A DNA stretch of 64,000 nucleotides from Escherichia phage Baret: the sequence record OR896834.1, one strand, 5' to 3'. Under the pieces are notes generated by a model. It saw only the letters and a program-made list of their open reading frames with translations. It searched no databases and had not been told where the DNA came from. A program made the translations under genes and the position numbers. Shown here piece after piece: positions 5,206 through 64,000 of this stretch (positions are counted from its first letter, which is position 1; the number at the start of each line of letters is the position of its first letter).

Positions 5206-6674
5206 ATATCGCTGGCCTGTTCACCTGTTGAATTTTCAGCTTTGTCTTTCTTAGCACGTTTAGATTGAGCCGGCTTATCCTTCTCAATAGGGATAACGAA
5301 CTCAGCTTCCATTTGAGATATATCTTCCATTGCTAGGTTGGTAGTGTTATCCATCCGCAGGGTTTCCCAGTTCATTTTAGGCATAAACTTCACGCTATCA
5401 GAAGAACGAGTCTTAACGAAGTCAAACATAATAGCACCTTGACCATTATCAGCTTTTGCAGCATTAAGATTAGCAGCCATGTCTGCGGAATCAAGAATCC
5501 CCTTTGACATACGTGTTCTACCATCTTGATCGATCTGGTAAGGAGCTACACCAGCTACGTTATGTTTCTGGCAGATAGATTTGAAAGACGAGCTAACAAC
5601 CATCTGTTCTTTCCAGTCATACATATCAATGGTTTTAGAGTCTGGGAGTCGGGTTTGGTTAATATAGTCCAGTAAAGCTACTGTAACTTTATCACCATAT
5701 CTAGCAACTAATTTATTTAATTCTACGTCAACTGTTGTAATGGACAGTTCAGGGTCATAAACGATAATCATAGGAGTATGTAGTTCATACCCTTCTATTA
5801 GTTTACTCTCCATATCGTAGAAATCACTCATCTTAGCCATTGTGTACTGTTTAACGAAGTTATCGAAAAGCTCTTCACCGCCATTAAACATCCTAGCTCT
5901 AGTTCTGGCTAATCTCAACAGAGCTGCACCTTCTAGAGTATTATTACGCATTGCTAGTGCTGATACACCAGCTAACATGGCTAGATTACGTCTAAATACT
6001 TCATGTTCTTTCATCTCAATTGAGAAGTATGGAGCAATATCTCCATTCAAATATTGCTGAACCTGTATGTTTGAACAGATAATGGATTTACCAGTACCAC
6101 GCCAACCACCAAGCAGTAACGTTTCTGTGCGAGCTAAACCAATTTGAGCGTCGAACTCATTACAAATACCAAGAGCGATTAAGTTCAGTTTGGTATCTTC
6201 TTCTCTCTGGAAAATACGCATGTTATCTGCGTTGAATACTTTTCCAGTATTCGTTACTTTCTCTTCTAATTTTAAGTGAAGGGAGGCAACTCGGTTGAGA
6301 ATTTCTCCCTGATCCAGCATTGTTAAATCTTGAAGCACGTCTGTTTCTAGAAGCTTCAGGAATAAATCCTGTGTATATTCAGCCTCTAGGACTTCAAGTG
6401 CCTGTTCCATGCTAACTTCTGGAATTTGAGTGTTAGCTAAAACGACTAGAGCTTGAGAAAGGCGGGCGTTCCTATTAGCCTCAAGCATCAGTGCGTCAAT
6501 GGACGGCATTGTGTTATATTTTTTATAATAATTCTGGACGGCTTGGTAAATTGAGGAGAAAGCGTCATTAAAATGATCTTTATGCAGTTTTGAGAATGTT
6601 TCCAATGCTATTTGCTTCTGTTCGGAAGCTAGAAGCATCTTCAACACTACAGCTTGCACGTTAAACAAGGTCAT
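5202..6674 (-). CDS. DnaB-like replicative helicase / P-loop ATPase
   Basis: Walker A GGWRGTGKS; start moved to internal ATG (MTLFNV) preceded by AAGGAG; track's longer ORF (to 6725) would overlap an upstream terminator hairpin. Confidence 0.7.
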   Translation of the reverse strand: MTLFNVQAVVLKMLLASEQKQIALETFSKLHKDHFNDAFSSIYQAVQNYYKKYNTMPSIDALMLEANRNARLSQALVVLANTQIPEVSMEQALEVLEAEYTQDLFLKLLETDVLQDLTMLDQGEILNRVASLHLKLEEKVTNTGKVFNADNMRIFQREEDTKLNLIALGICNEFDAQIGLARTETLLLGGWRGTGKSIICSNIQVQQYLNGDIAPYFSIEMKEHEVFRRNLAMLAGVSALAMRNNTLEGAALLRLARTRARMFNGGEELFDNFVKQYTMAKMSDFYDMESKLIEGYELHTPMIIVYDPELSITTVDVELNKLVARYGDKVTVALLDYINQTRLPDSKTIDMYDWKEQMVVSSSFKSICQKHNVAGVAPYQIDQDGRTRMSKGILDSADMAANLNAAKADNGQGAIMFDFVKTRSSDSVKFMPKMNWETLRMDNTTNLAMEDISQMEAEFVIPIEKDKPAQSKRAKKDKAENSTGEQASDI

Positions 6675-59646: not shown

Positions 59647-59831
59647 TGGAAACTCTTTTTCTTTTAATGCTCGTAGGTTCCTTGCTAGTTATATTAGCAC
59701 TTCTACTGATCTGCAATATTCTTAATAATAAGAATCTAGAGCTAAAGTGTGAAAACCAAATCCTTAATCGTGAACTTAAACAATATAACATAGCAGCGCA
59801 CAAGCTACTAGACAAATTGGAGAATAAGTAA
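59646..59831 (+). CDS. hypothetical membrane protein (61 aa)
   Basis: Track ORF. Confidence 0.4.
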   Translation: METLFLLMLVGSLLVILALLLICNILNNKNLELKCENQILNRELKQYNIAAHKLLDKLENK

Positions 59832-60442
59832 TGACTTTATATGCACAACAACCTGTTCAAGTAGTACCAGACCATGAATTAAATACATGGGATTATGATT
59901 TTAAAGACTTAACTGCCACTGTACAGTTCAAATCTATGAAGCTAACCTTTGCGCACACTAATATTAAAGCATGTAAAGATTTTGAAGGTAGGCTCAACAA
60001 CGCTCGTAAGATTTTTGGCAAGGCTCGCATCCCAGCTGATAATCTAATTAATACACTAATCGATGCTGGTTATAAACTTGTAAAGACTGAGGTTAACCGT
60101 CCTAGTACTCCTGTGACTATTCGAGATCCGTGGCAGTCAGGGCCAATTACAATGTGGAACAGCCCTAAAATAACGTCGGATTTGCACAATGTTCCATGCG
60201 GTGGCGTTATAGAAAATAATTCCTCATATCGAGTTGGTGAAGATTATGGACCTTCTGCACAATTGAAACATACTCAAGAAGCTTTTGAATCTGATATGAA
60301 AAGCGTAGCGCCTGTGGATACTGAAGGTTTTAGAAGTCCCATCTATGTTACTCACTTTAATAATCTTAGGCCTGGGGGTATAAATGATACTATCCTTGAA
60401 GCGTTGGGAGCTGCTATTAATGAAGATAAGAGGGGTAATTAA
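59831..60442 (+). CDS. hypothetical protein (203 aa)
   Basis: Track ORF. Confidence 0.5.
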   Translation: MTLYAQQPVQVVPDHELNTWDYDFKDLTATVQFKSMKLTFAHTNIKACKDFEGRLNNARKIFGKARIPADNLINTLIDAGYKLVKTEVNRPSTPVTIRDPWQSGPITMWNSPKITSDLHNVPCGGVIENNSSYRVGEDYGPSAQLKHTQEAFESDMKSVAPVDTEGFRSPIYVTHFNNLRPGGINDTILEALGAAINEDKRGN

Positions 60443-61167
60443 TGAGTATAAAAAAGAATTTAGCAGAGATTATTAAGTTAGCTAGAGCTTGTAATGGAAA
60501 ATGTGTTTCTCAGCTTAATGAACTAGAGGCACATGCAGTAGCGTTTTGTGCAGAGTTTTACCCTGCATATATTAACGCTAGTGGACAGCCGAAATATAAT
60601 AAGGATGCCGAAGAAGTTACGTTAGCTCCTTCATATATTAGCTTGCGTCGTTTAATTCAAACCGTTGATCCTACTATTAAAGGATTCTCAGCAGATTCAT
60701 TCCACGTCTTTGCAGATAAAGAACTCCCGTATTTTAAAGAAGGAAATGCAAAGTCATGTTTAGAATGTTATCCTAATATACTGATGATTCCTCAAAAGCA
60801 ATGTAAATACGATCATCTTCCTAGACTTACAAAGAAAGTAGCACCACCTTATTCTTCTCTATCTGAATTAAAGCTAGGAATTGTATCTACACTTGCGCAG
60901 ATTCATCTAAGTATAGTTGACGACTCAACAACATCTAACCCTATTCTAGACGCTGCTCACTTTGAAATTTTACGTGATCCTGAACAAGCTAGAAAAGTTG
61001 CTAAGTCTGTTAAGTTTGATATATCAACAATTCTTGACACTAAACAAGAAACTAGACCTAGAGGAAGTGTAGATTATTCTGCGCTAAATTCCGAGTCATC
61101 TTACTTAGCAACATTCCTTTTCATGGCGTCAAAAGGGGTTATTCTAAAGGTTAATAAAGATGGATGA
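60442..61167 (+). CDS. hypothetical protein (241 aa)
   Basis: Track ORF. Confidence 0.5.
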   Translation: MSIKKNLAEIIKLARACNGKCVSQLNELEAHAVAFCAEFYPAYINASGQPKYNKDAEEVTLAPSYISLRRLIQTVDPTIKGFSADSFHVFADKELPYFKEGNAKSCLECYPNILMIPQKQCKYDHLPRLTKKVAPPYSSLSELKLGIVSTLAQIHLSIVDDSTTSNPILDAAHFEILRDPEQARKVAKSVKFDISTILDTKQETRPRGSVDYSALNSESSYLATFLFMASKGVILKVNKDG

Positions 61168-61888
61168 TTTACGTGCTGAAATTAATAAAAAGTTACGAGA
61201 GGAAGCCCGGAGGTTTCCTCTTAAAAACTTTTTGAAGTCAAATGGCTCTACTAATATAACGAAGATTAGGCAACTTCACCCTGACTTCCAACAAGAGGCC
61301 TTAAACCTTATCTTTATTAGGAAAGCTTTAAAAGTCCAGAAAGAAGAGTATGGGTATGAAAGAGTTAATTATAAGACAGCCAATCAGTTAGTAGAGATAT
61401 GGTGCTATAAACATAAAGGATACTTTATGCAAACTGCTAGATCTCACCTAGATGGGCACGGTTGTTTACAATGTGCTAGGGAAAGCAACCTAAATACACC
61501 TATCGAGAAACCGGAGGTAGAAGAAGATGTTCAGTCCCCCACATATCTCTATATCTTCTCTAATAAAGATCAGTCTAGGAAGAAATTAAAGACAAAGATT
61601 GGGGTTTCTAGAGAGCCACATCAAAGGTTTAAGAATCTAGAGTATGATAAATTGCGTGTGCCGGGTTTTGAAGATATGGAAGTATTTGGTATCTACCAGT
61701 ATAAGAAAGGATCGAAAGAACTCGCTTACAAAATAGAACACCAAGCACATAAATTTTTCGAGAATAAATTTGCTAACCATTATAAATTCGATGGAGCAAA
61801 AGAGATATTCAACATTAAAGCTGTAGAGGCAGAAGAATATCTATTAAGTCAAGGTTGCATAAAAATTTACCCAACTCCAAACTCATGA
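61160..61888 (+). CDS. two-domain protein: Cys/His-rich N-domain (paralogue of 58705) + T5orf172/GIY-YIG-like C-domain; possible homing-endonuclease-like
   Basis: N-domain shared with 58705-59151; C-domain TYLYIFSNKDQSRKKLKTKIGVSREPHQRFKNL resembles the T5orf172 signature also seen at 38294. Confidence 0.5.
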   Translation: MDDLRAEINKKLREEARRFPLKNFLKSNGSTNITKIRQLHPDFQQEALNLIFIRKALKVQKEEYGYERVNYKTANQLVEIWCYKHKGYFMQTARSHLDGHGCLQCARESNLNTPIEKPEVEEDVQSPTYLYIFSNKDQSRKKLKTKIGVSREPHQRFKNLEYDKLRVPGFEDMEVFGIYQYKKGSKELAYKIEHQAHKFFENKFANHYKFDGAKEIFNIKAVEAEEYLLSQGCIKIYPTPNS

Positions 61889-61915
61889 CAAAAATTTAAA
61901 AGTAACGAAATCTGC

Positions 61916-61945
61916 TTGACATTCGTGAGAATAATGTGTTATAAT
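61916..61945 (+). promoter_or_regulatory. consensus sigma70 promoter (TTGACA-18-TATAAT) firing into the repeat region
   Basis: ttgacattcgtgagaataatgtgttataat; no ORF with RBS downstream. Confidence 0.6.
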
Positions 61946-62353
61946 AATCTCATAGATTAAAAACATCAACTTGTTTTTACCTCTAGGCCGTAGATTTACA
62001 TCATTCCTCGTAGGAAAACACTTGATGACGGTTCTGTTCGCAGGTTCTCGTCAATTGTTCTTCCACACCGAGACTTAGGAGGATGTATCAAATCGCACGC
62101 GCCTAGAGGGACTAACTCTCATGAAATGGGGGTATATTTACTTTTAAATAACTAAAAAATATTTAAAGGCAATATCTGTGTTCAAGATGATACACCTGTT
62201 GCCGCTCATCTGCTAGGATGGCACAACACTTTCTTCTAGACTCCTAAGTTTCTAGGAATAGTTGAGCACTAACTCTAGAGTTTACATTAAACTTTAAATC
62301 TGCTTCTCTAGTTAACTCAGGCGGTTTTCATATTCCTAGAAACTCCAGCAATA

Positions 62354-62390
62354 GGCGGTTAATACAGGGCGGTTATAGGGAGGGCGGTTA
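62354..62390. repeat. three direct copies of GGCGGTTA
   Basis: taGGCGGTTAatacagGGCGGTTAtagggagGGCGGTTAttt. Confidence 0.6.
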
Positions 62391-62433
62391 TTTCTAAGAG
62401 ACATTTTTTGAAAACACATTTCCAGAAATTACT

Positions 62434-63034
62434 GTCGGATTTGCACATTGTGTTTCTAGAAATTTATGGTCGGATTTGCACAAACGCCTAAGTTTTTAGG
62501 AACTCTTACTCTCCTGAAAATACCAGCATTATTTCGGGCCGAAGGCCCGTGATTGCCTGAGTTTTTAGAGCCACAGAAATTTTCACTTGTCAAGCTATTT
62601 TGCCACCTTTAGCAAATAAAATCTTACTTTATCTCCACTAATCTCAAATTAACCCAAATCTTCTCAACTCTTCCCCAAAAACGCAGCAAATCAGGTGCTC
62701 CGCACCAAACATGCTGCTCCTCCAGTTTCTCCTCTTATTTTCTCTCGCTCTCTCATCTTCTCCTCAAACCTATACAATCACACACTCTCCAATCGAAGTC
62801 ACAAAAATCTTGTCGGTTTCGCACACCTCAACACATGTCGGATCTGCACATATTCTAGCTAATTCCACAGGATTCGAACGCAGTTCGTGATTGCTGGAGT
62901 TTCTAGAAAAATTCATTGTCGGATTTGCACACTATAAAAATTTTTCGGGTCGGATTTGCACACTACCAAAAATTGTCGGATTCGCACATACACGCCCACA
63001 CGTAACACCCGTGGAGCAATGTCGGATTTGCACA
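62434..63034. repeat. eight dispersed direct repeats, consensus GTCGGATTTGCACA
   Basis: Copies at ~62434, 62469, 62812, 62837, 62918, 62949, 62975, 63021 (variants GTCGGTTTCGCACA, GTCGGATCTGCACA, GTCGGATTCGCACA); irregular spacing. Confidence 0.8.
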
Positions 63035-63039
63035 AAAGC

Positions 63040-63057
63040 GCAGGGCAATTGCCCTGC
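63040..63057. repeat. 18-bp perfect palindrome
   Basis: GCAGGGCAATTGCCCTGC. Confidence 0.7.
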
Positions 63058-63063
63058 TCGCCT

Positions 63064-63267
63064 GAATGCGAATGATAATGAGAATCAATCTTATTTAAAA
63101 AGCGGAATGAGAATGATAATGATTCGCATTTAAGAAAGGGAATGAGAGCTATTCAAGAAGTGAAATGATTCTCATTTAAGAAAGGAAATGATTATCGGTT
63201 AGACAGTGGAATGCGAATGATAATGATTCGCATTTAAAAACGGAAGTGAGAAACACTGTTATTTAAG
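63064..63267. repeat. tandem array of ~30-35-bp imperfect repeats with internal palindrome
   Basis: About 7 units, consensus gGAATGaGAATGATAATGATTCGCATTTAAgaaag; inner inverted repeat AATGCGAAT...ATTCGCATT. Confidence 0.75.
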
Positions 63268-63360
63268 TTATCCACAGACTTATCAACAGCACGATTTGAC
63301 TTGACAGAATCCTAGCCATTTTGAGGCGTTATTAACAGACTTATCCACAGCTTATCCTAC
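63268..63360. promoter_or_regulatory. cluster of DnaA-box-like 9-mers
   Basis: TTATCCACA at 63268-76 and 63341-49 (exact consensus); TTATCAACA at 63280-88; TTATCCTAC at 63352-60. Confidence 0.6.
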
Positions 63361-63633
63361 TGTATAAATATACAGTATTCCTATGTAGTGAATAATTCTA
63401 ATATAGGCCTAAAACGTCCTGAATCGCATTCTAACGCGTTTAATTTTGATGGGGATACTAAAACAAGGGCAAAATTGGAGGAGGCTTAAAAATTAGTTAG
63501 CTTGCTAACGATCACACAAGGCGACATGTAACACCTTAATCATTAGCAGGCTAACCATCGCGGGCGCGGTTAAATGAGAATCACTCTCATTTGAGAATTG
63601 GGGGCACTCCCTGGTAGTTACGCCCCGTTATTA

Positions 63634-63828
63634 TTAGTCTGGTAGTCGATGCGTGATCTTTTCCTCCTCCCCGTAGGAATCCACCAAATGCTGATAATAA
63701 CCATCGGCATCATAAATAACGCTATCATATTCGCCACGCTCGACCGCTTGCCGATTCTCCGGCGTATCGGGCACGTAAAAAACATCAACCATTGTACTGA
63801 TTTTGGTTACAACAATTTTATTGTTCAT
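63634..63828 (-). CDS. hypothetical protein beyond the repeat region (64 aa from internal ATG)
   Basis: Minus-strand track ORF; start set at MNNKIVV preceded by AGGGG. Confidence 0.4.
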   Translation of the reverse strand: MNNKIVVTKISTMVDVFYVPDTPENRQAVERGEYDSVIYDADGYYQHLVDSYGEEEKITHRLPD

Positions 63829-64000
63829 AATAACCCCTAGTAAATATATTTTTGCCAATAGTGGCGAACGTTATCGCCACCAGCGGAATCATTTGCAGCC
63901 TCAACATTACCAGCGAAAATATATAATCTCATTGCGCCACCTTTCGAAACGCTGTTTCAATACTATCCGCAGTGGATTGAATATACGCGCCTTTCATTAT

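What the first reader, a model, noticed from the sequence alone, without database searches (positions are those of the whole stretch)
61890..63630. Repeat-dense noncoding region with DnaA boxes, eight GTCGGATTTGCACA repeats and a tandem palindromic array
About 1.7 kb has no credible ORF but is packed with ordered sequence: a GGCGGTTA triplet, recurring TTCTAGAA-type palindromes, eight copies of GTCGGATTTGCACA, an 18-bp perfect palindrome, ~7 tandem ~34-bp units each carrying AATGCGAAT/ATTCGCATT, then four DnaA-box-like 9-mers. This matches what is described for the T5 injection-stop-signal / first-step-transfer boundary, but the repeat families imply several distinct DNA-binding factors whose identities are not defined. 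A consensus TTGACA-18-TATAAT promoter at 61916-61945 fires into the region with no ORF downstream.
Basis: partly seen in the sequence, partly recalled or inferred. Interest (0 to 1): 0.75.

Follow-up and report, generated by a model that had tools for sequence, protein, structure and literature searches.

The report
T5-type injection-stop / terminal-repeat boundary region
This is the long-known non-coding "injection stop signal" region at the inner edge of the terminal repeat of a T5-like phage, so the finding is a rediscovery; but besides the known DnaA boxes it holds a near-perfect LexA site, Fur-box-like palindromes, and an unannotated small structured RNA gene next to it.

Summary
Window 62181-63475 aligns colinearly, at about 90% identity, with T5 "Repeat Region 3". 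RefSeq T5 labels that stretch "injection stop signal (iss)", and GenBank AY587007 already itemises the same repeats: DR-A to DR-D, palindromes D-J, nick 1 and the terminal-repeat (TR) end. Every motif family exceeds chance and recurs in T5 relatives, most of them out to Klebsiella phages. So the finding is already known in kind. How it works remains untested, according to 2020-2026 papers.

Points I did not find in the literature I could read:
- palD (63358-63377) matches the LexA SOS-box consensus at 19 of 20 positions. It is kept in 12 of 14 relatives.
- The palindromic array (63060-63243) holds the best Fur-consensus matches in the 64 kb. A PWM built from the phage palindromes alone picks out the Fur-regulated ent-fep intergenic regions of E. 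coli.
- Three independently annotated TR ends map to 62567|62568, inside the repeat region.
- The "orphan" consensus promoter drives a candidate RNA of about 190 nt (61952-62146). It has a terminator, compensatory changes and eight unrelated core sequence classes. It has no Rfam hit and no annotation.

Best reading: a composite boundary element comprising a host-factor landing pad, a nick, the same-strand DR-D array, the genome terminus and a non-coding RNA gene.

The parts
61916..61945 (+). Consensus sigma-70 promoter TTGACA-18-TATAAT with a TGn extended -10
   Evidence: It matches 12 of 12 positions. A comparable promoter sits at the same place in 21 of the 22 relatives examined, including Klebsiella Sugarlandviruses; T5 and TrudiGerster carry TTGACA-17-TATCAT, and HdH2 has only a weaker -35.
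61945..61959 (.). Perfect dyad TAATCT-CAT-AGATTA spanning the predicted transcription start
   Evidence: Coordinates. T5 has TAACTC-TAT-GAGTTA at the same place: both arms differ but the dyad is kept. Function unknown.
61952..62146 (+). Candidate non-coding RNA of about 190 nt: 5' hairpin H1 61958-61979; long closed domain 61980-62109 (50 predicted pairs); terminator hairpin 62115-62133 followed by a U-rich run
   Evidence: The + strand folds at -64.2 kcal/mol, z = -5.9; the - strand gives z = -3.3. The same layout occurs in 38 loci, 31 unique sequences and 8 unrelated core classes. The + strand z-score ranges from -2.5 to -7.7 and is stronger than the - strand in 8 of 10 representatives. There is no conserved ORF. 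Covariation score is 0.199 against 0.088 for shuffles, 0 of 500 reaching it. A terminator-like site is found here and a terminator is annotated at the equivalent place in phage HdH2. There is no Rfam hit.
62183..62240 (.). 58-nt block conserved at 98%, function unknown
   Evidence: Mean column identity is 0.98 across 12 Markadamsvirinae.
62246..62258 (+). GTTTYTAGRAA-family motif, copy a
   Evidence: It forms a perfect 14-nt inverted repeat with copy b (I4).
62333..62345 (-). GTTTYTAGRAA-family motif, copy b (inverted)
   Evidence: (I1, I4).
62354..62390 (+). GGCGGTTA x 3
   Evidence: Markadamsvirinae relatives keep 2-3 copies and the Klebsiella Sugarlandviruses 1-2; there are none in Vibrio PG07.
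62434..62447 (+). DR-D copy (T5 DR-D8), outside the terminal repeat
   Evidence: Column identity 0.98.
62450..62462 (+). GTTTYTAGRAA-family motif, copy c
62469..62482 (+). DR-D copy (T5 DR-D7), outside the terminal repeat
   Evidence: Column identity 1.00.
62490..62502 (+). GTTTYTAGRAA-family motif, copy d
62535..62549 (.). GC hairpin CGGGCC-GAA-GGCCCG, about 20 bp before the TR end
   Evidence: Coordinates. Invariant in 12 relatives.
62548..62576 (.). Terminal-repeat end motif CGTGATTGCCTGAGTTTTTA|GAGCCACAG. The inferred inner edge of the left TR, which equals the mature right genome end, lies between 62567 and 62568; the TR runs rightwards from 62568
   Evidence: The annotated TR ends of T5 (AY587007 10139), Spc35 and Sepoy (PhageTerm) all map to this exact junction. 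Column identity 0.95.
62600..62800 (+). C-rich, G-poor tract (G = 14, C = 70) that includes T5 DR-A copies (62643-62681)
   Evidence: The 150-nt window with the highest C+T content in the whole 64 kb starts at 62622.
62812..62825 (+). DR-D copy (T5 DR-D6; 2 mismatches)
62837..62850 (+). DR-D copy (T5 DR-D5; 1 mismatch)
62886..62909 (+). Second copy of the TR-end-like motif CGTGATTGCTGGAGTTTCTAGAAA, which includes GTTTYTAGRAA copy e
   Evidence: (D5, I1).
62918..62931 (+). DR-D copy (T5 DR-D4)
62949..62962 (+). DR-D copy (T5 DR-D3)
62975..62988 (+). DR-D copy (T5 DR-D2; 1 mismatch)
63021..63034 (+). DR-D copy (T5 DR-D1)
63038..63057 (.). Site homologous to T5 major nick 1 (GCGCAGGG, 63038-63045), overlapping palJ, a perfect 18-bp palindrome (63040-63057)
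   Evidence: Column identity 0.97. The nick itself cannot be seen in sequence.
63060..63243 (.). Palindromic array (T5 DR-C1-4 / DRE, palE-I): about 7 units of 23 or 35 nt built from AATGNN hexamers. These are Fur-box-like 7-1-7 dyads, with TGATAATGAGAATCA at 63073 and TGATAATGATTCGCA at 63114 and 63218
   Evidence: Both 15/19 matches, four of the eight 14/19 matches, and all three 12/14 matches to the Fur consensus in the 64 kb lie here. The dyad-only motif and its E. coli test are.
63245..63283 (+). IR-C', carrying the DnaA box pair TTATCCACA-gac-TTATCAACA (63268-63288)
63284..63334 (.). Spacer between IR-C' and IR-D', the same length as in T5
   Evidence: Davison 2020 reports a constant spacer in 25 phages.
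63329..63375 (+). DnaA box pair TTATTAACA-gac-TTATCCACA (63329-63349), within DR-B1 and IR-D' (63335-63375)
63358..63377 (.). palD, TACTGTATAAATATACAGTA: matches the LexA SOS-box consensus TACTG(TA)5CAGTA at 19 of 20 positions
   Evidence: It is the only site within 3 mismatches in the 64 kb, against 0.01 expected. It scores 19/20 in 12 of 14 relatives including Klebsiella phages, 18/20 in two, and 17/20 in Vibrio PG07.
63573..63597 (.). Extra dyad of the same family, AATGAGAATCACTCTCATT, in a segment that T5 lacks
   Evidence: (D3). The flanking GGGCGCGGTnAAATGAGAA is recognisable even in Vibrio phage PG07.
60175..60188 (+). Outlying exact DR-D copy inside ORF 59831-60442
   Evidence: It is conserved at the homologous place in Spc35 (L001 2523).

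Best explanation
The stretch is this phage's copy of the T5 'Repeat Region 3', the injection stop signal region. It is the non-coding boundary between the first-step-transfer DNA (the terminal repeat, which runs rightwards from 62568) and the rest of the genome. It is composite. In the order the DNA enters the cell (right to left in the window) it contains:
1. A host-factor landing pad at 63060-63380. It holds one operator-grade LexA box (palD), two pairs of DnaA boxes and an array of Fur-box-like dyads.
2. The major nick site with palJ, at the classical 7.9% point.
3. Eight same-strand DR-D repeats spread over 600 bp, with a C-rich tract among them. The physical genome terminus (62567|62568) lies within this stretch.
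4. Outside the repeat, a strong promoter that makes a structured RNA of about 190 nt pointing back toward the terminus.

Most likely mechanism (inferred, not shown): host proteins already present in the cell bind the landing pad as soon as it enters. DnaA was proposed by Davison; I add LexA and probably Fur. They form a bulky, possibly membrane-tethered nucleoprotein complex just inside the envelope, which contributes to the pause or marks it. The DR-D segment (about 600 bp, roughly 205 nm) then occupies the tail and envelope conduit. It is the first DNA to be engaged when the pre-early proteins A1 and A2 restart transfer. The uniform orientation of the DR-D copies fits a directional process.

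The confidence given applies to the identity of the region. The mechanistic steps are each at about 0.2-0.35.
For: Identity:
- Homology and colinearity with T5, with feature-by-feature mapping.
- RefSeq annotation of the iss and the nick.
- The same architecture in Tequintavirus, Epseptimavirus and Sugarlandvirus, and a recognisable core in the Vibrio Pogseptimavirus PG07.

Constraint: DR-D columns are 0.93 identical against 0.83 for the surrounding columns. The GC hairpin is 1.00, nick/palJ 0.97, and the DnaA and palD blocks 0.92-0.95.

Host-factor sites:
- In a 33-motif control panel, only LexA, Fur and DnaA have their window-best hits in the region.
- Paired DnaA boxes occur twice against 0.00 expected.
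- The best Fur-consensus hits cluster in the array.
- A PWM built from the phage dyads alone ranks the fepB-entC and fepA-fes intergenic regions first and second in 26 kb of E. coli DNA. Five of its top 10 hits fall in the Fur-regulated intergenic regions; permuted PWMs reach that in 2 of 300 trials.
- The order Fur-like array, DnaA boxes, SOS box, further Fur-like dyads is kept in Vibrio phage PG07, although nucleotide similarity there is limited to about 70 nt.

Geometry: the DT57C tail tube has 40 rings of 41.84 A, about 167 nm. Nick 1 to DR-D8 is 604 bp, about 205 nm.

Literature: the pause needs no new protein synthesis, and the iss is described as a cis-acting site in this region.
Against: - No binding or function has been measured for any of these motifs.
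- The LexA, Fur and DnaA consensus sequences were taken from my memory of the E. coli literature.
- Two relatives (TrudiGerster, S133) carry a point change in the CTGT core of palD, so LexA binding cannot be strictly essential.
- The array's own consensus is TGAGAAT-N-ATTCTCA, and the recurrent AATGCGAAT deviates from the Fur box at a symmetric position. A phage protein such as A2 could be the true ligand.
- The array is the least conserved block, at 0.73.
- Proteins bound to DNA that is already inside the cell do not obviously stop further entry.
- The 7.9% 'stop' may partly reflect breakage at the nick.
Confidence: 0.9

Rival explanations
1. Genome-end processing and packaging signal. The left half of the region (about 62240-63035) exists mainly to define and cut the right end of the terminal repeat in concatemers, or to duplicate the repeat. 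The elements involved would be the DR-D copies, the GTTTYTAGRAA / CGTGATTGC-GAGTTTYTAGA motifs, the GC hairpin and the C-rich tract. Transcription from the 61916 promoter toward the end could assist, as proposed for the T7 concatemer junction.
For: Three independently annotated TR ends map to one invariant junction inside the region. That junction is flanked by an invariant GC hairpin and by a motif that recurs at 62886 and, inverted, at 62330. DR-D copies lie on both sides of the cut, 2 outside and 6 inside. The adjoining gene carries a T5orf172 / GIY-YIG-like nuclease domain. This reading is compatible with the iss role of the right half, so it is partly complementary rather than exclusive.
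Against: T5's other TR junction (unique DNA into the right TR at 111613) shares no motif with this one and has no DR-D copy. No terminase binding data exist. A conserved DR-D copy also sits 2.2 kb away inside a gene. The T7 analogy comes from memory, not from a test.
Confidence: 0.3
2. DnaA-dependent replication origin or primer-RNA origin. In this reading the DnaA boxes, the strong promoter, its structured transcript and the AT-rich DNA after its terminator act together as an origin.
For: There are four DnaA boxes in two precise pairs. A strong promoter is followed by an AT-rich stretch at 62134-62180. The arrangement is conserved across relatives.
Against: The promoter cassette and the DnaA boxes are about 1.1 kb apart. 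There are only 2 GATC sites in 1.7 kb and no 13-mer-type unwinding element beside the boxes. T5 origins were mapped near the genome centre, and the replication genes are not expressed during first-step transfer (Davison 2020). The RNA has its own terminator.
Confidence: 0.07
3. Transcriptional insulator between convergent units. Terminators and tightly bound host repressors (LexA, Fur, DnaA) would stop RNA polymerase coming from the pre-early genes, or from the 61916 promoter, from running through the boundary. That would prevent transcription from pulling in second-step DNA prematurely.
For: The region lies between convergently oriented genes: + strand ORFs up to 61888, and - strand ORFs from 63634. 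T5 annotates terminators just before palD. There is a terminator-like hairpin at palJ on the - strand and one at 62115-62133 on the + strand. The operator-grade sites sit exactly between these.
Against: A 1.7-kb, multi-family, deeply conserved structure is far more than an insulator needs. Eight same-strand DR-D copies are unexplained. Transcription-driven DNA entry is documented for T7, not for T5 (from memory).
Confidence: 0.12
4. The palindromic array, palD and DR-D are operators for phage-encoded proteins, for example the pre-early DNA-binding dimer A2, alone or with A1. On this view their resemblance to Fur and LexA boxes is coincidental.
For: The array consensus TGAGAAT-N-ATTCTCA and the recurrent AATGCGAAT differ systematically from the Fur box. 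DR-D matches no host consensus beyond 8 of 9 positions of a DnaA box. A2 is a DNA-binding dimer needed for restart (Davison 2020).
Against: A 19/20 match to the SOS box, conserved from Escherichia to Klebsiella phages, is very unlikely to be coincidence. The phage-derived PWM finds genuine Fur-regulated regions in E. coli. The motifs persist in a Vibrio phage whose pre-early genes differ. The pause itself needs no phage protein synthesis.
Confidence: 0.25

Closest known systems
Bacteriophage T5 injection stop signal / Repeat Region 3 (Heusterspreute et al. 1987; Wang et al. 2005; Davison 2015, 2020)
   Same: The sequence is homologous, at about 90% identity over 62181-63475. The order of elements is the same: DR-D, DR-A, nick 1/palJ, DR-C and palE-I, IR-C'-spacer-IR-D' with paired DnaA boxes, palD. 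The TR end is at the same position.
   Different: - There are 8 rather than 9 DR-D copies; T5's DR-D9 zone has diverged here.
- palJ is a perfect 18-mer here and a 17-mer in T5.
- Segment 63476-63640 is unrelated to T5, which has the palC terminator there. It carries an extra dyad instead.
- The RNA cassette core at 61980-62109 belongs to a different sequence class from T5's.
E. coli LexA SOS operators (CTGT-N8-ACAG; consensus TACTG(TA)5CAGTA)
   Same: palD matches at 19 of 20 positions, including both CTGT/ACAG half-sites and the TA-rich spacer.
   Different: It is not placed over a convincing promoter; only a 9/12 promoter-like site overlaps its right half. It sits in a virulent phage with no known SOS-controlled switch. 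Binding is untested.
Fur boxes (GATAATGATAATCATTATC; 7-1-7 TGATAATnATTATCA; hexamer arrays)
   Same: The array has hexamer periodicity and 7-1-7 dyads, with 12/14 and 15/19 matches clustered together. Relatives carry 13/14 matches and one 14/14 match: T5 has TGATAATGATTCTCA and SP01 has TGATAATCATTATCA. The phage-derived PWM recovers the Fur-regulated ent-fep promoter regions.
   Different: The phage consensus has G in place of T at a symmetric position (TGAGAAT), and AATGCGAAT arms are frequent. The array is not obviously promoter-associated.
oriC-type DnaA box clusters
   Same: There are consensus and near-consensus 9-mers in closely spaced pairs.
   Different: There is no adjacent unwinding element and no GATC cluster. 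All four boxes lie on one strand. The T5 origins map elsewhere.
Small bacterial and phage regulatory RNAs that have their own promoter and intrinsic terminator
   Same: The cassette has a consensus promoter, an RNA of about 190 nt, a stable conserved fold, an intrinsic terminator, and no conserved ORF.
   Different: It matches no Rfam family. No antisense target was found in the 64 kb. Its scaffold is conserved but its core is hypervariable, with 8 classes. Expression has not been shown.
T7 concatemer-junction / terminal-repeat flanking repeats (from memory)
   Same: Short repeat arrays and a palindromic element lie next to a direct terminal repeat end, and a promoter reads toward the junction.
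   Different: There is no sequence relationship. The roles are untested in either direction here. The other T5 TR junction lacks these motifs.

Membership tests
T5-type iss / Repeat Region 3 | Lies in the non-coding gap between the pre-early (first-step-transfer) genes and the early genes, at the inner end of the left terminal repeat | tested here: met
   Flanking genes are homologous to T5 ORF018 / SPC35_0016 on one side and T5.017-type phrog_6973 on the other. The TR end maps to 62567|62568.
T5-type iss / Repeat Region 3 | Nucleotide homology and colinearity with the T5 iss | tested here: met
T5-type iss / Repeat Region 3 | Array of same-strand DR-D repeats (9 in T5) | tested here: met
   Eight copies, all on the + strand. 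Relatives carry 8-11 copies.
T5-type iss / Repeat Region 3 | IR-D'-spacer-IR-C' with two pairs of DnaA or DnaA* boxes, each pair 3 bp apart, and a constant spacer | tested here: met
   The spacer is the same length as in T5.
T5-type iss / Repeat Region 3 | Inverted partner copy IR-C-spacer-IR-D (Repeat Region 2) 2-4 kb further inside the repeat | not testable with these tools
   It would lie beyond window position 64000. It is present in T5 at 6022-6152, where it has its own CTGT-N8-ACAG box.
T5-type iss / Repeat Region 3 | Major single-strand nick at about 7.9% | tested here: inconclusive
   The nick-site sequence GCGCAGGG is conserved at 63038-63045. A nick cannot be seen in sequence.
T5-type iss / Repeat Region 3 | Acts in cis to arrest DNA transfer | not testable with these tools
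   This needs infection experiments. It has not been dissected even in T5.
LexA (SOS) operator | CTGT-N8-ACAG dyad with an AT-rich spacer close to TACTG(TA)5CAGTA | tested here: met
   19 of 20 positions match, and it is the only such site in the 64 kb.
LexA (SOS) operator | Overlaps a promoter that it represses | tested here: inconclusive
   Only a weak 9/12 promoter-like site (63369-63396) overlaps it.
LexA (SOS) operator | Bound by LexA | not testable with these tools
   Needs EMSA, footprinting or ChIP.
Fur box | Match to the 19-bp or 7-1-7 consensus, with hexamer arrays | tested here: met
   The independent PWM test on the E. coli ent-fep locus is.
Fur box | Bound by Fur-Fe2+ and iron-responsive | not testable with these tools
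   No data exist. The systematic TGAGAAT deviation leaves the ligand open.
oriC-like replication origin | DnaA boxes next to an AT-rich unwinding element and GATC clusters | tested here: not met
   There are only 2 GATC sites in 1.7 kb, and no unwinding element was seen next to the boxes on reading the sequence.
Independent sRNA / ncRNA gene | Own promoter and intrinsic terminator | tested here: met
Independent sRNA / ncRNA gene | Conserved secondary structure with compensatory changes, and no conserved ORF | tested here: met
   Caveat: the alignable subgroup has only 10 sequences, and an alignment of all classes gives no consensus structure.
Independent sRNA / ncRNA gene | Detected transcript | not testable with these tools
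   No T5-family transcriptome was found in the library.
Known Rfam family | Covariance-model match | tested here: not met
   There are no hits at E <= 1 over 61500-64000. Over the cassette alone, only noise appears at E = 3-7.

The most novel reading that the evidence does not exclude
The T5-family injection stop region is a conserved composite landing pad for three host regulators already present in the cell, not a DnaA-only device. They are DnaA, LexA (through palD, a near-ideal SOS box) and Fur (through the palindromic array). Their joint occupancy on the just-entered DNA creates the 50-year-old unexplained pause, or couples its release to host state; for example, LexA would be cleaved once A1-driven host DNA breakdown induces SOS. 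In addition, the adjacent 'orphan' consensus promoter encodes a previously unrecognised RNA of about 190 nt, with a conserved scaffold and a hypervariable core. Its gene lies just beyond the repeat region, on the DNA that enters in the second step.
Probability: 0.15. Interest if true: 0.8.

Novelty: new member of a known kind. Interest (0 to 1): 0.45.

Why it matters
How T5 stops after injecting 8% of its genome, and how it restarts, has been open since the 1960s. Recent papers still call the iss a repeat-rich region of untested function.

The finding itself adds only another homologue. The re-analysis gives named, purchasable candidate ligands (LexA and Fur, besides DnaA), with exact footprint predictions and obvious host mutants. 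It also separates the region into modules: landing pad, nick, DR-D array, genome terminus and RNA gene. These can be mutated independently with existing T5 engineering tools. The candidate RNA would be a new phage RNA family found across Demerecviridae.

Tried and rejected
- Scanning IMG/VR with the DnaA-pair 17-mer returned more than 120 contigs, most of them not obviously T5-like (only a few come from roughly 110-120-kb contigs). It was useless for comparison.
'Skeleton' sequences cut at MFE-defined helices came out in inconsistent register, so I did not use them.
- Rfam found nothing credible at either threshold.
- An antisense target search for the RNA within the window found only chance 10-12-mers.
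- A conserved small peptide in the cassette was rejected: start, length and sequence differ between classes.
- IHF, CRP, FNR, ArgR, PurR, Fis and 24 other host or control consensus motifs showed no distinctive hit. ArgR merely re-finds palD.
- I looked for a shared motif between the two TR junctions of T5 and found none.
- An oriC-like origin was rejected: few GATC sites and no unwinding element.
- Davison 2015, Heusterspreute 1987 and Wang 2005 could not be read here. The statement that the LexA and Fur resemblance is unreported therefore rests only on Davison 2020 (no occurrence of either protein's name) and on full-text searches.


Full report
WHAT IS THERE

Window 61890-63630 lies between + strand genes ending at 61888 and - strand genes starting at 63634. 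No internal ORF exceeds 80 aa, and none of the five longest hits a PHROG family. Both flanking genes do: phrog_4605 plus nuclease families on one side, phrog_6973 on the other.

- GTCGGATTTGCACA occurs 8 times in the region, all on the + strand. There are 10 window matches against 0.35 expected.
- GGCGGTTA occurs 3 times.
- The 'TTCTAGAA-type' motif is better written GTTTYTAGRAA. It has 5 copies, all within 62248-62909, against 0.41 expected.
- The 18-bp perfect palindrome lies at 63040-63057.
- Four DnaA-type 9-mers are present. Their paired, 3-bp-spaced arrangement occurs twice against 0.00 expected. Single boxes are not enriched.
- The promoter at 61916-61945 matches 12 of 12 positions and has an extended -10.

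The only inaccurate detail is the 'seven 34-bp units each with AATGCGAAT/ATTCGCATT'. The array is irregular, with periods of 23 and 35, and that 9-mer occurs four times counting both strands.

WHAT IT IS

The window comes from a T5-like phage (Demerecviridae, Markadamsvirinae). megablast finds 455 phage records, the best at 91-93% identity.

T5 AY587007 aligns colinearly with window 62181-63475, with the window + strand equal to the T5 reverse complement. That record already annotates the same objects: direct repeats A-D, palindromes D-J, inverted repeats C' and D', major nick 1 and the end of the left terminal repeat. RefSeq T5 labels the equivalent of roughly window 62640-63650 'injection stop signal (iss)'. 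It places the major single-chain interruption at the equivalent of about 63039.

Davison (bioRxiv 10.1101/866236) compared this 'Repeat Region 3' in 25 phages. He proposed that the DnaA boxes tether the entering DNA to membrane-bound DnaA, and he left the other repeats unexplained. Papers from 2023 and 2026 confirm that no functional dissection exists.

As a class, the object is already known.

CONSERVATION

I compared 14 relatives from four genera.
- Tequinta-, Epseptima- and Sugarlandviruses all keep 8-11 same-strand DR-D copies, the paired DnaA boxes and the dyad array.
- Across 12 Markadamsvirinae, DR-D columns are 0.93 identical against 0.83 for the neighbouring columns.
- The nick/palJ block is 0.97, the DnaA and palD blocks 0.92-0.95, a GC hairpin 1.00, and the dyad array only 0.73.
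- Vibrio phage PG07 shares only about 70 alignable nucleotides. It still shows the same order: dyad array, DnaA boxes (one 3-bp-spaced pair), CTGT-N8-ACAG box, further dyads. It also has a diverged DR-D-like repeat upstream.

CANDIDATE LIGANDS

All consensus sequences used here come from my knowledge of the E. coli literature. To guard against cherry-picking I scored 33 host or control consensus motifs over the whole window. Only LexA, Fur and DnaA have their best window-wide matches inside the region.

LexA. palD (63358-63377, TACTGTATAAATATACAGTA) matches TACTG(TA)5CAGTA at 19 of 20 positions. It is the only site within three mismatches in the 64 kb, against 0.01 expected.
- It scores 19/20 in 12 of 14 relatives, including the Klebsiella phages. 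It scores 18/20 in two relatives that each carry one core change, and 17/20 in PG07.
- T5's Repeat Region 2 carries a second CTGT-N8-ACAG box.
- The two palD variants seen among relatives are reverse complements of each other.

Fur. Both 15/19 matches, four of the eight 14/19 matches, and all three 12/14 (7-1-7) matches to the Fur consensus in the 64 kb lie in 63068-63232. Relatives hold 13/14 matches and one 14/14 match.

I also made a test that does not depend on my recollection of the consensus:
- I collected 15-mers from the arrays of 14 phages by dyad symmetry alone. Their consensus is TGAGAATCATTCTCA.
- I scanned 26 kb of E. coli K-12 around ent-fep with the resulting PWM.
- The top two hits fall in the fepB-entC and fepA-fes intergenic regions. 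Five of the top ten fall in the three Fur-regulated intergenic regions, which make up 2.8% of the DNA. Column-permuted PWMs average 0.96 such hits and reach 5 in 2 of 300 trials.

The systematic G-for-T change, and the recurrent AATGCGAAT arms, leave open that the true ligand is another protein.

Prior reports. Neither LexA nor Fur is mentioned in Davison 2020, and full-text searches found no paper linking T5 to an SOS box or a Fur box. The older primary papers could not be read.

THE GENOME TERMINUS

The annotated TR ends of T5, Spc35 and Sepoy (the last from PhageTerm) map to the identical junction, TTTTTA|GAGCCACAG, at window 62567|62568.
- The junction is preceded by the invariant hairpin CGGGCCGAAGGCCCG (62535-62549).
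- It is embedded in a motif that recurs at 62886 and, inverted, at 62330.
- Two DR-D copies lie outside the repeat and six inside.
- Just inside lies the most C+T-rich 150-nt stretch of the whole window, with G = 14 and C = 70 over 62600-62800.
- T5's other TR junction shares none of these motifs.

Part of the 'iss region' may therefore serve end formation. That is the main rival, or complement, to the pause function.

THE 'ORPHAN' PROMOTER

The 230 nt after the promoter are not homologous to T5, yet T5 has a promoter at the same place.
- In 21 of the 22 relatives examined, including Klebsiella Sugarlandviruses, a comparable extended -10 promoter is followed by the same cassette (HdH2 keeps the -10 and the cassette behind a weaker -35). 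Most begin AUAGAUUA (T5 and TrudiGerster begin AUGAGUUA). All have a short hairpin, a long domain of about 130 nt closed by a CUAGG...CCUAG-type stem, and a GGGGG hairpin followed by a U-rich run.
- The 31 unique sequences fall into 8 core classes that cannot be aligned with one another.
- Each class nevertheless folds far better than shuffled sequence on the promoter strand, with z from -2.5 to -7.7. The antisense strand is weaker in 8 of 10 representatives. The sense MFE is lower in 17 of 18 sequences, with 2-7 G-U pairs each.
- In the alignable subgroup, 97% of cells are paired and 8 pairs show compensatory changes. The covariation score is 0.199, against 0.088 for shuffles (0 of 500 reaching it) and at most 0.056 for slid controls.
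- No ORF is conserved. There is no Rfam hit and no annotation in three T5 records. One relative annotates the terminator. No antisense target was found in the window.

I regard this as a probable unannotated ncRNA gene (about 0.65) of unknown role.

MECHANISM (INFERENCE)

DNA enters from the right of the window toward the left. The LexA, DnaA and Fur-like sites are the last DNA inside the cell at the pause. Nick 1 and palJ mark the classical 7.9% point. The next 604 bp (about 205 nm) carry all eight DR-D copies, and that length is comparable to the tail tube (40 x 41.84 A = 167 nm in DT57C) plus neck, tip and envelope.

I therefore favour a two-part device. Pre-existing host proteins load onto the landing pad and help hold or mark the stop. 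The oriented DR-D array in the conduit is then what A1 and A2 engage to restart transfer.

None of this has been demonstrated. There are several objections:
- The physical objection that cytoplasmic binding need not stop entry.
- The two relatives with a mutated palD core.
- The plasticity of the array.
- The possibility that the 7.9% figure reflects breakage at the nick.

VERDICT

The object is a new member of a known kind. It has moderate interest, because the re-analysis turns an unexplained repeat thicket into specific, cheap experiments and exposes a candidate new phage RNA.

Noticed in passing
window 61952-62146 (+), promoter 61916-61945: Candidate unannotated ncRNA gene of about 190 nt. 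The scaffold is conserved: 5' hairpin, long closed domain, intrinsic terminator. The core is hypervariable, with 8 sequence classes in 38 Demerecviridae loci. No Rfam match.
   Followed up: yes
window 63358-63377: palD matches the LexA SOS-box consensus at 19 of 20 positions and is conserved out to Klebsiella phages. I did not find this mentioned in the T5 literature I could read.
   Followed up: yes
window 63060-63243 and 63573-63597: The palindromic array and an outlying dyad are Fur-box-like (7-1-7 and hexamer arrays). A PWM built from the phage dyads alone recovers the Fur-regulated ent-fep promoter regions of E. coli.
   Followed up: yes
window 62535-62576: Three independently annotated terminal-repeat ends (T5, Spc35, Sepoy) map to the same junction at 62567|62568. 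An invariant GC hairpin lies just before it, and the junction motif recurs at 62886-62907 and, inverted, at 62330-62352.
   Followed up: partly
window 60175-60188 (+), inside ORF 59831-60442: An extra exact DR-D copy lies 2.2 kb outside the repeat region, within a coding sequence and in the same orientation. It is conserved at the homologous place in Spc35 (L001 2523).
   Followed up: partly
window 62600-62800: Strongly strand-asymmetric C-rich, G-poor tract (G = 14, C = 70) immediately inside the terminal repeat. It contains the most C+T-rich 150-nt stretch of the whole 64 kb.
   Followed up: no
window 61945-61959: Perfect dyad TAATCT-CAT-AGATTA across the predicted transcription start. T5 has TAACTC-TAT-GAGTTA there, with both arms changed and the dyad kept. 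It could be an operator or a hairpin.
   Followed up: no
window 62183-62240: A 58-nt non-coding block is 98% identical across 12 Markadamsvirinae including T5. It is more conserved than most of the named repeats, and nothing explains it.
   Followed up: no
window 63358-63377 versus relatives (loci L001, L002, L123-L130): The two palD variants (centre AAAT or ATTT) are exact reverse complements of each other. This suggests that the palindrome flips, perhaps by gene conversion with the inverted Repeat Region 2 copy.
   Followed up: no
window 61160-61888 (+): The gene abutting the region carries a T5orf172 / MUG113 (GIY-YIG-like) domain and hits PHROG endonuclease families. That makes it a nuclease candidate right next to the genome terminus and the nick.
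   Followed up: partly
window 63476-63640 versus L002 and L131: This segment is unrelated to T5, which has the palC terminator there. Its GGGCGCGGTnAAATGAGAA...CATT core is nevertheless recognisable in Vibrio phage PG07.
   Followed up: partly
L136 (Salmonella phage Kenya-K36): The annotated DTR of this record ends next to the cassette promoter rather than at the usual junction, and its blastn match to the cassette is only partial. This is either a different repeat boundary or an annotation artefact.
   Followed up: no
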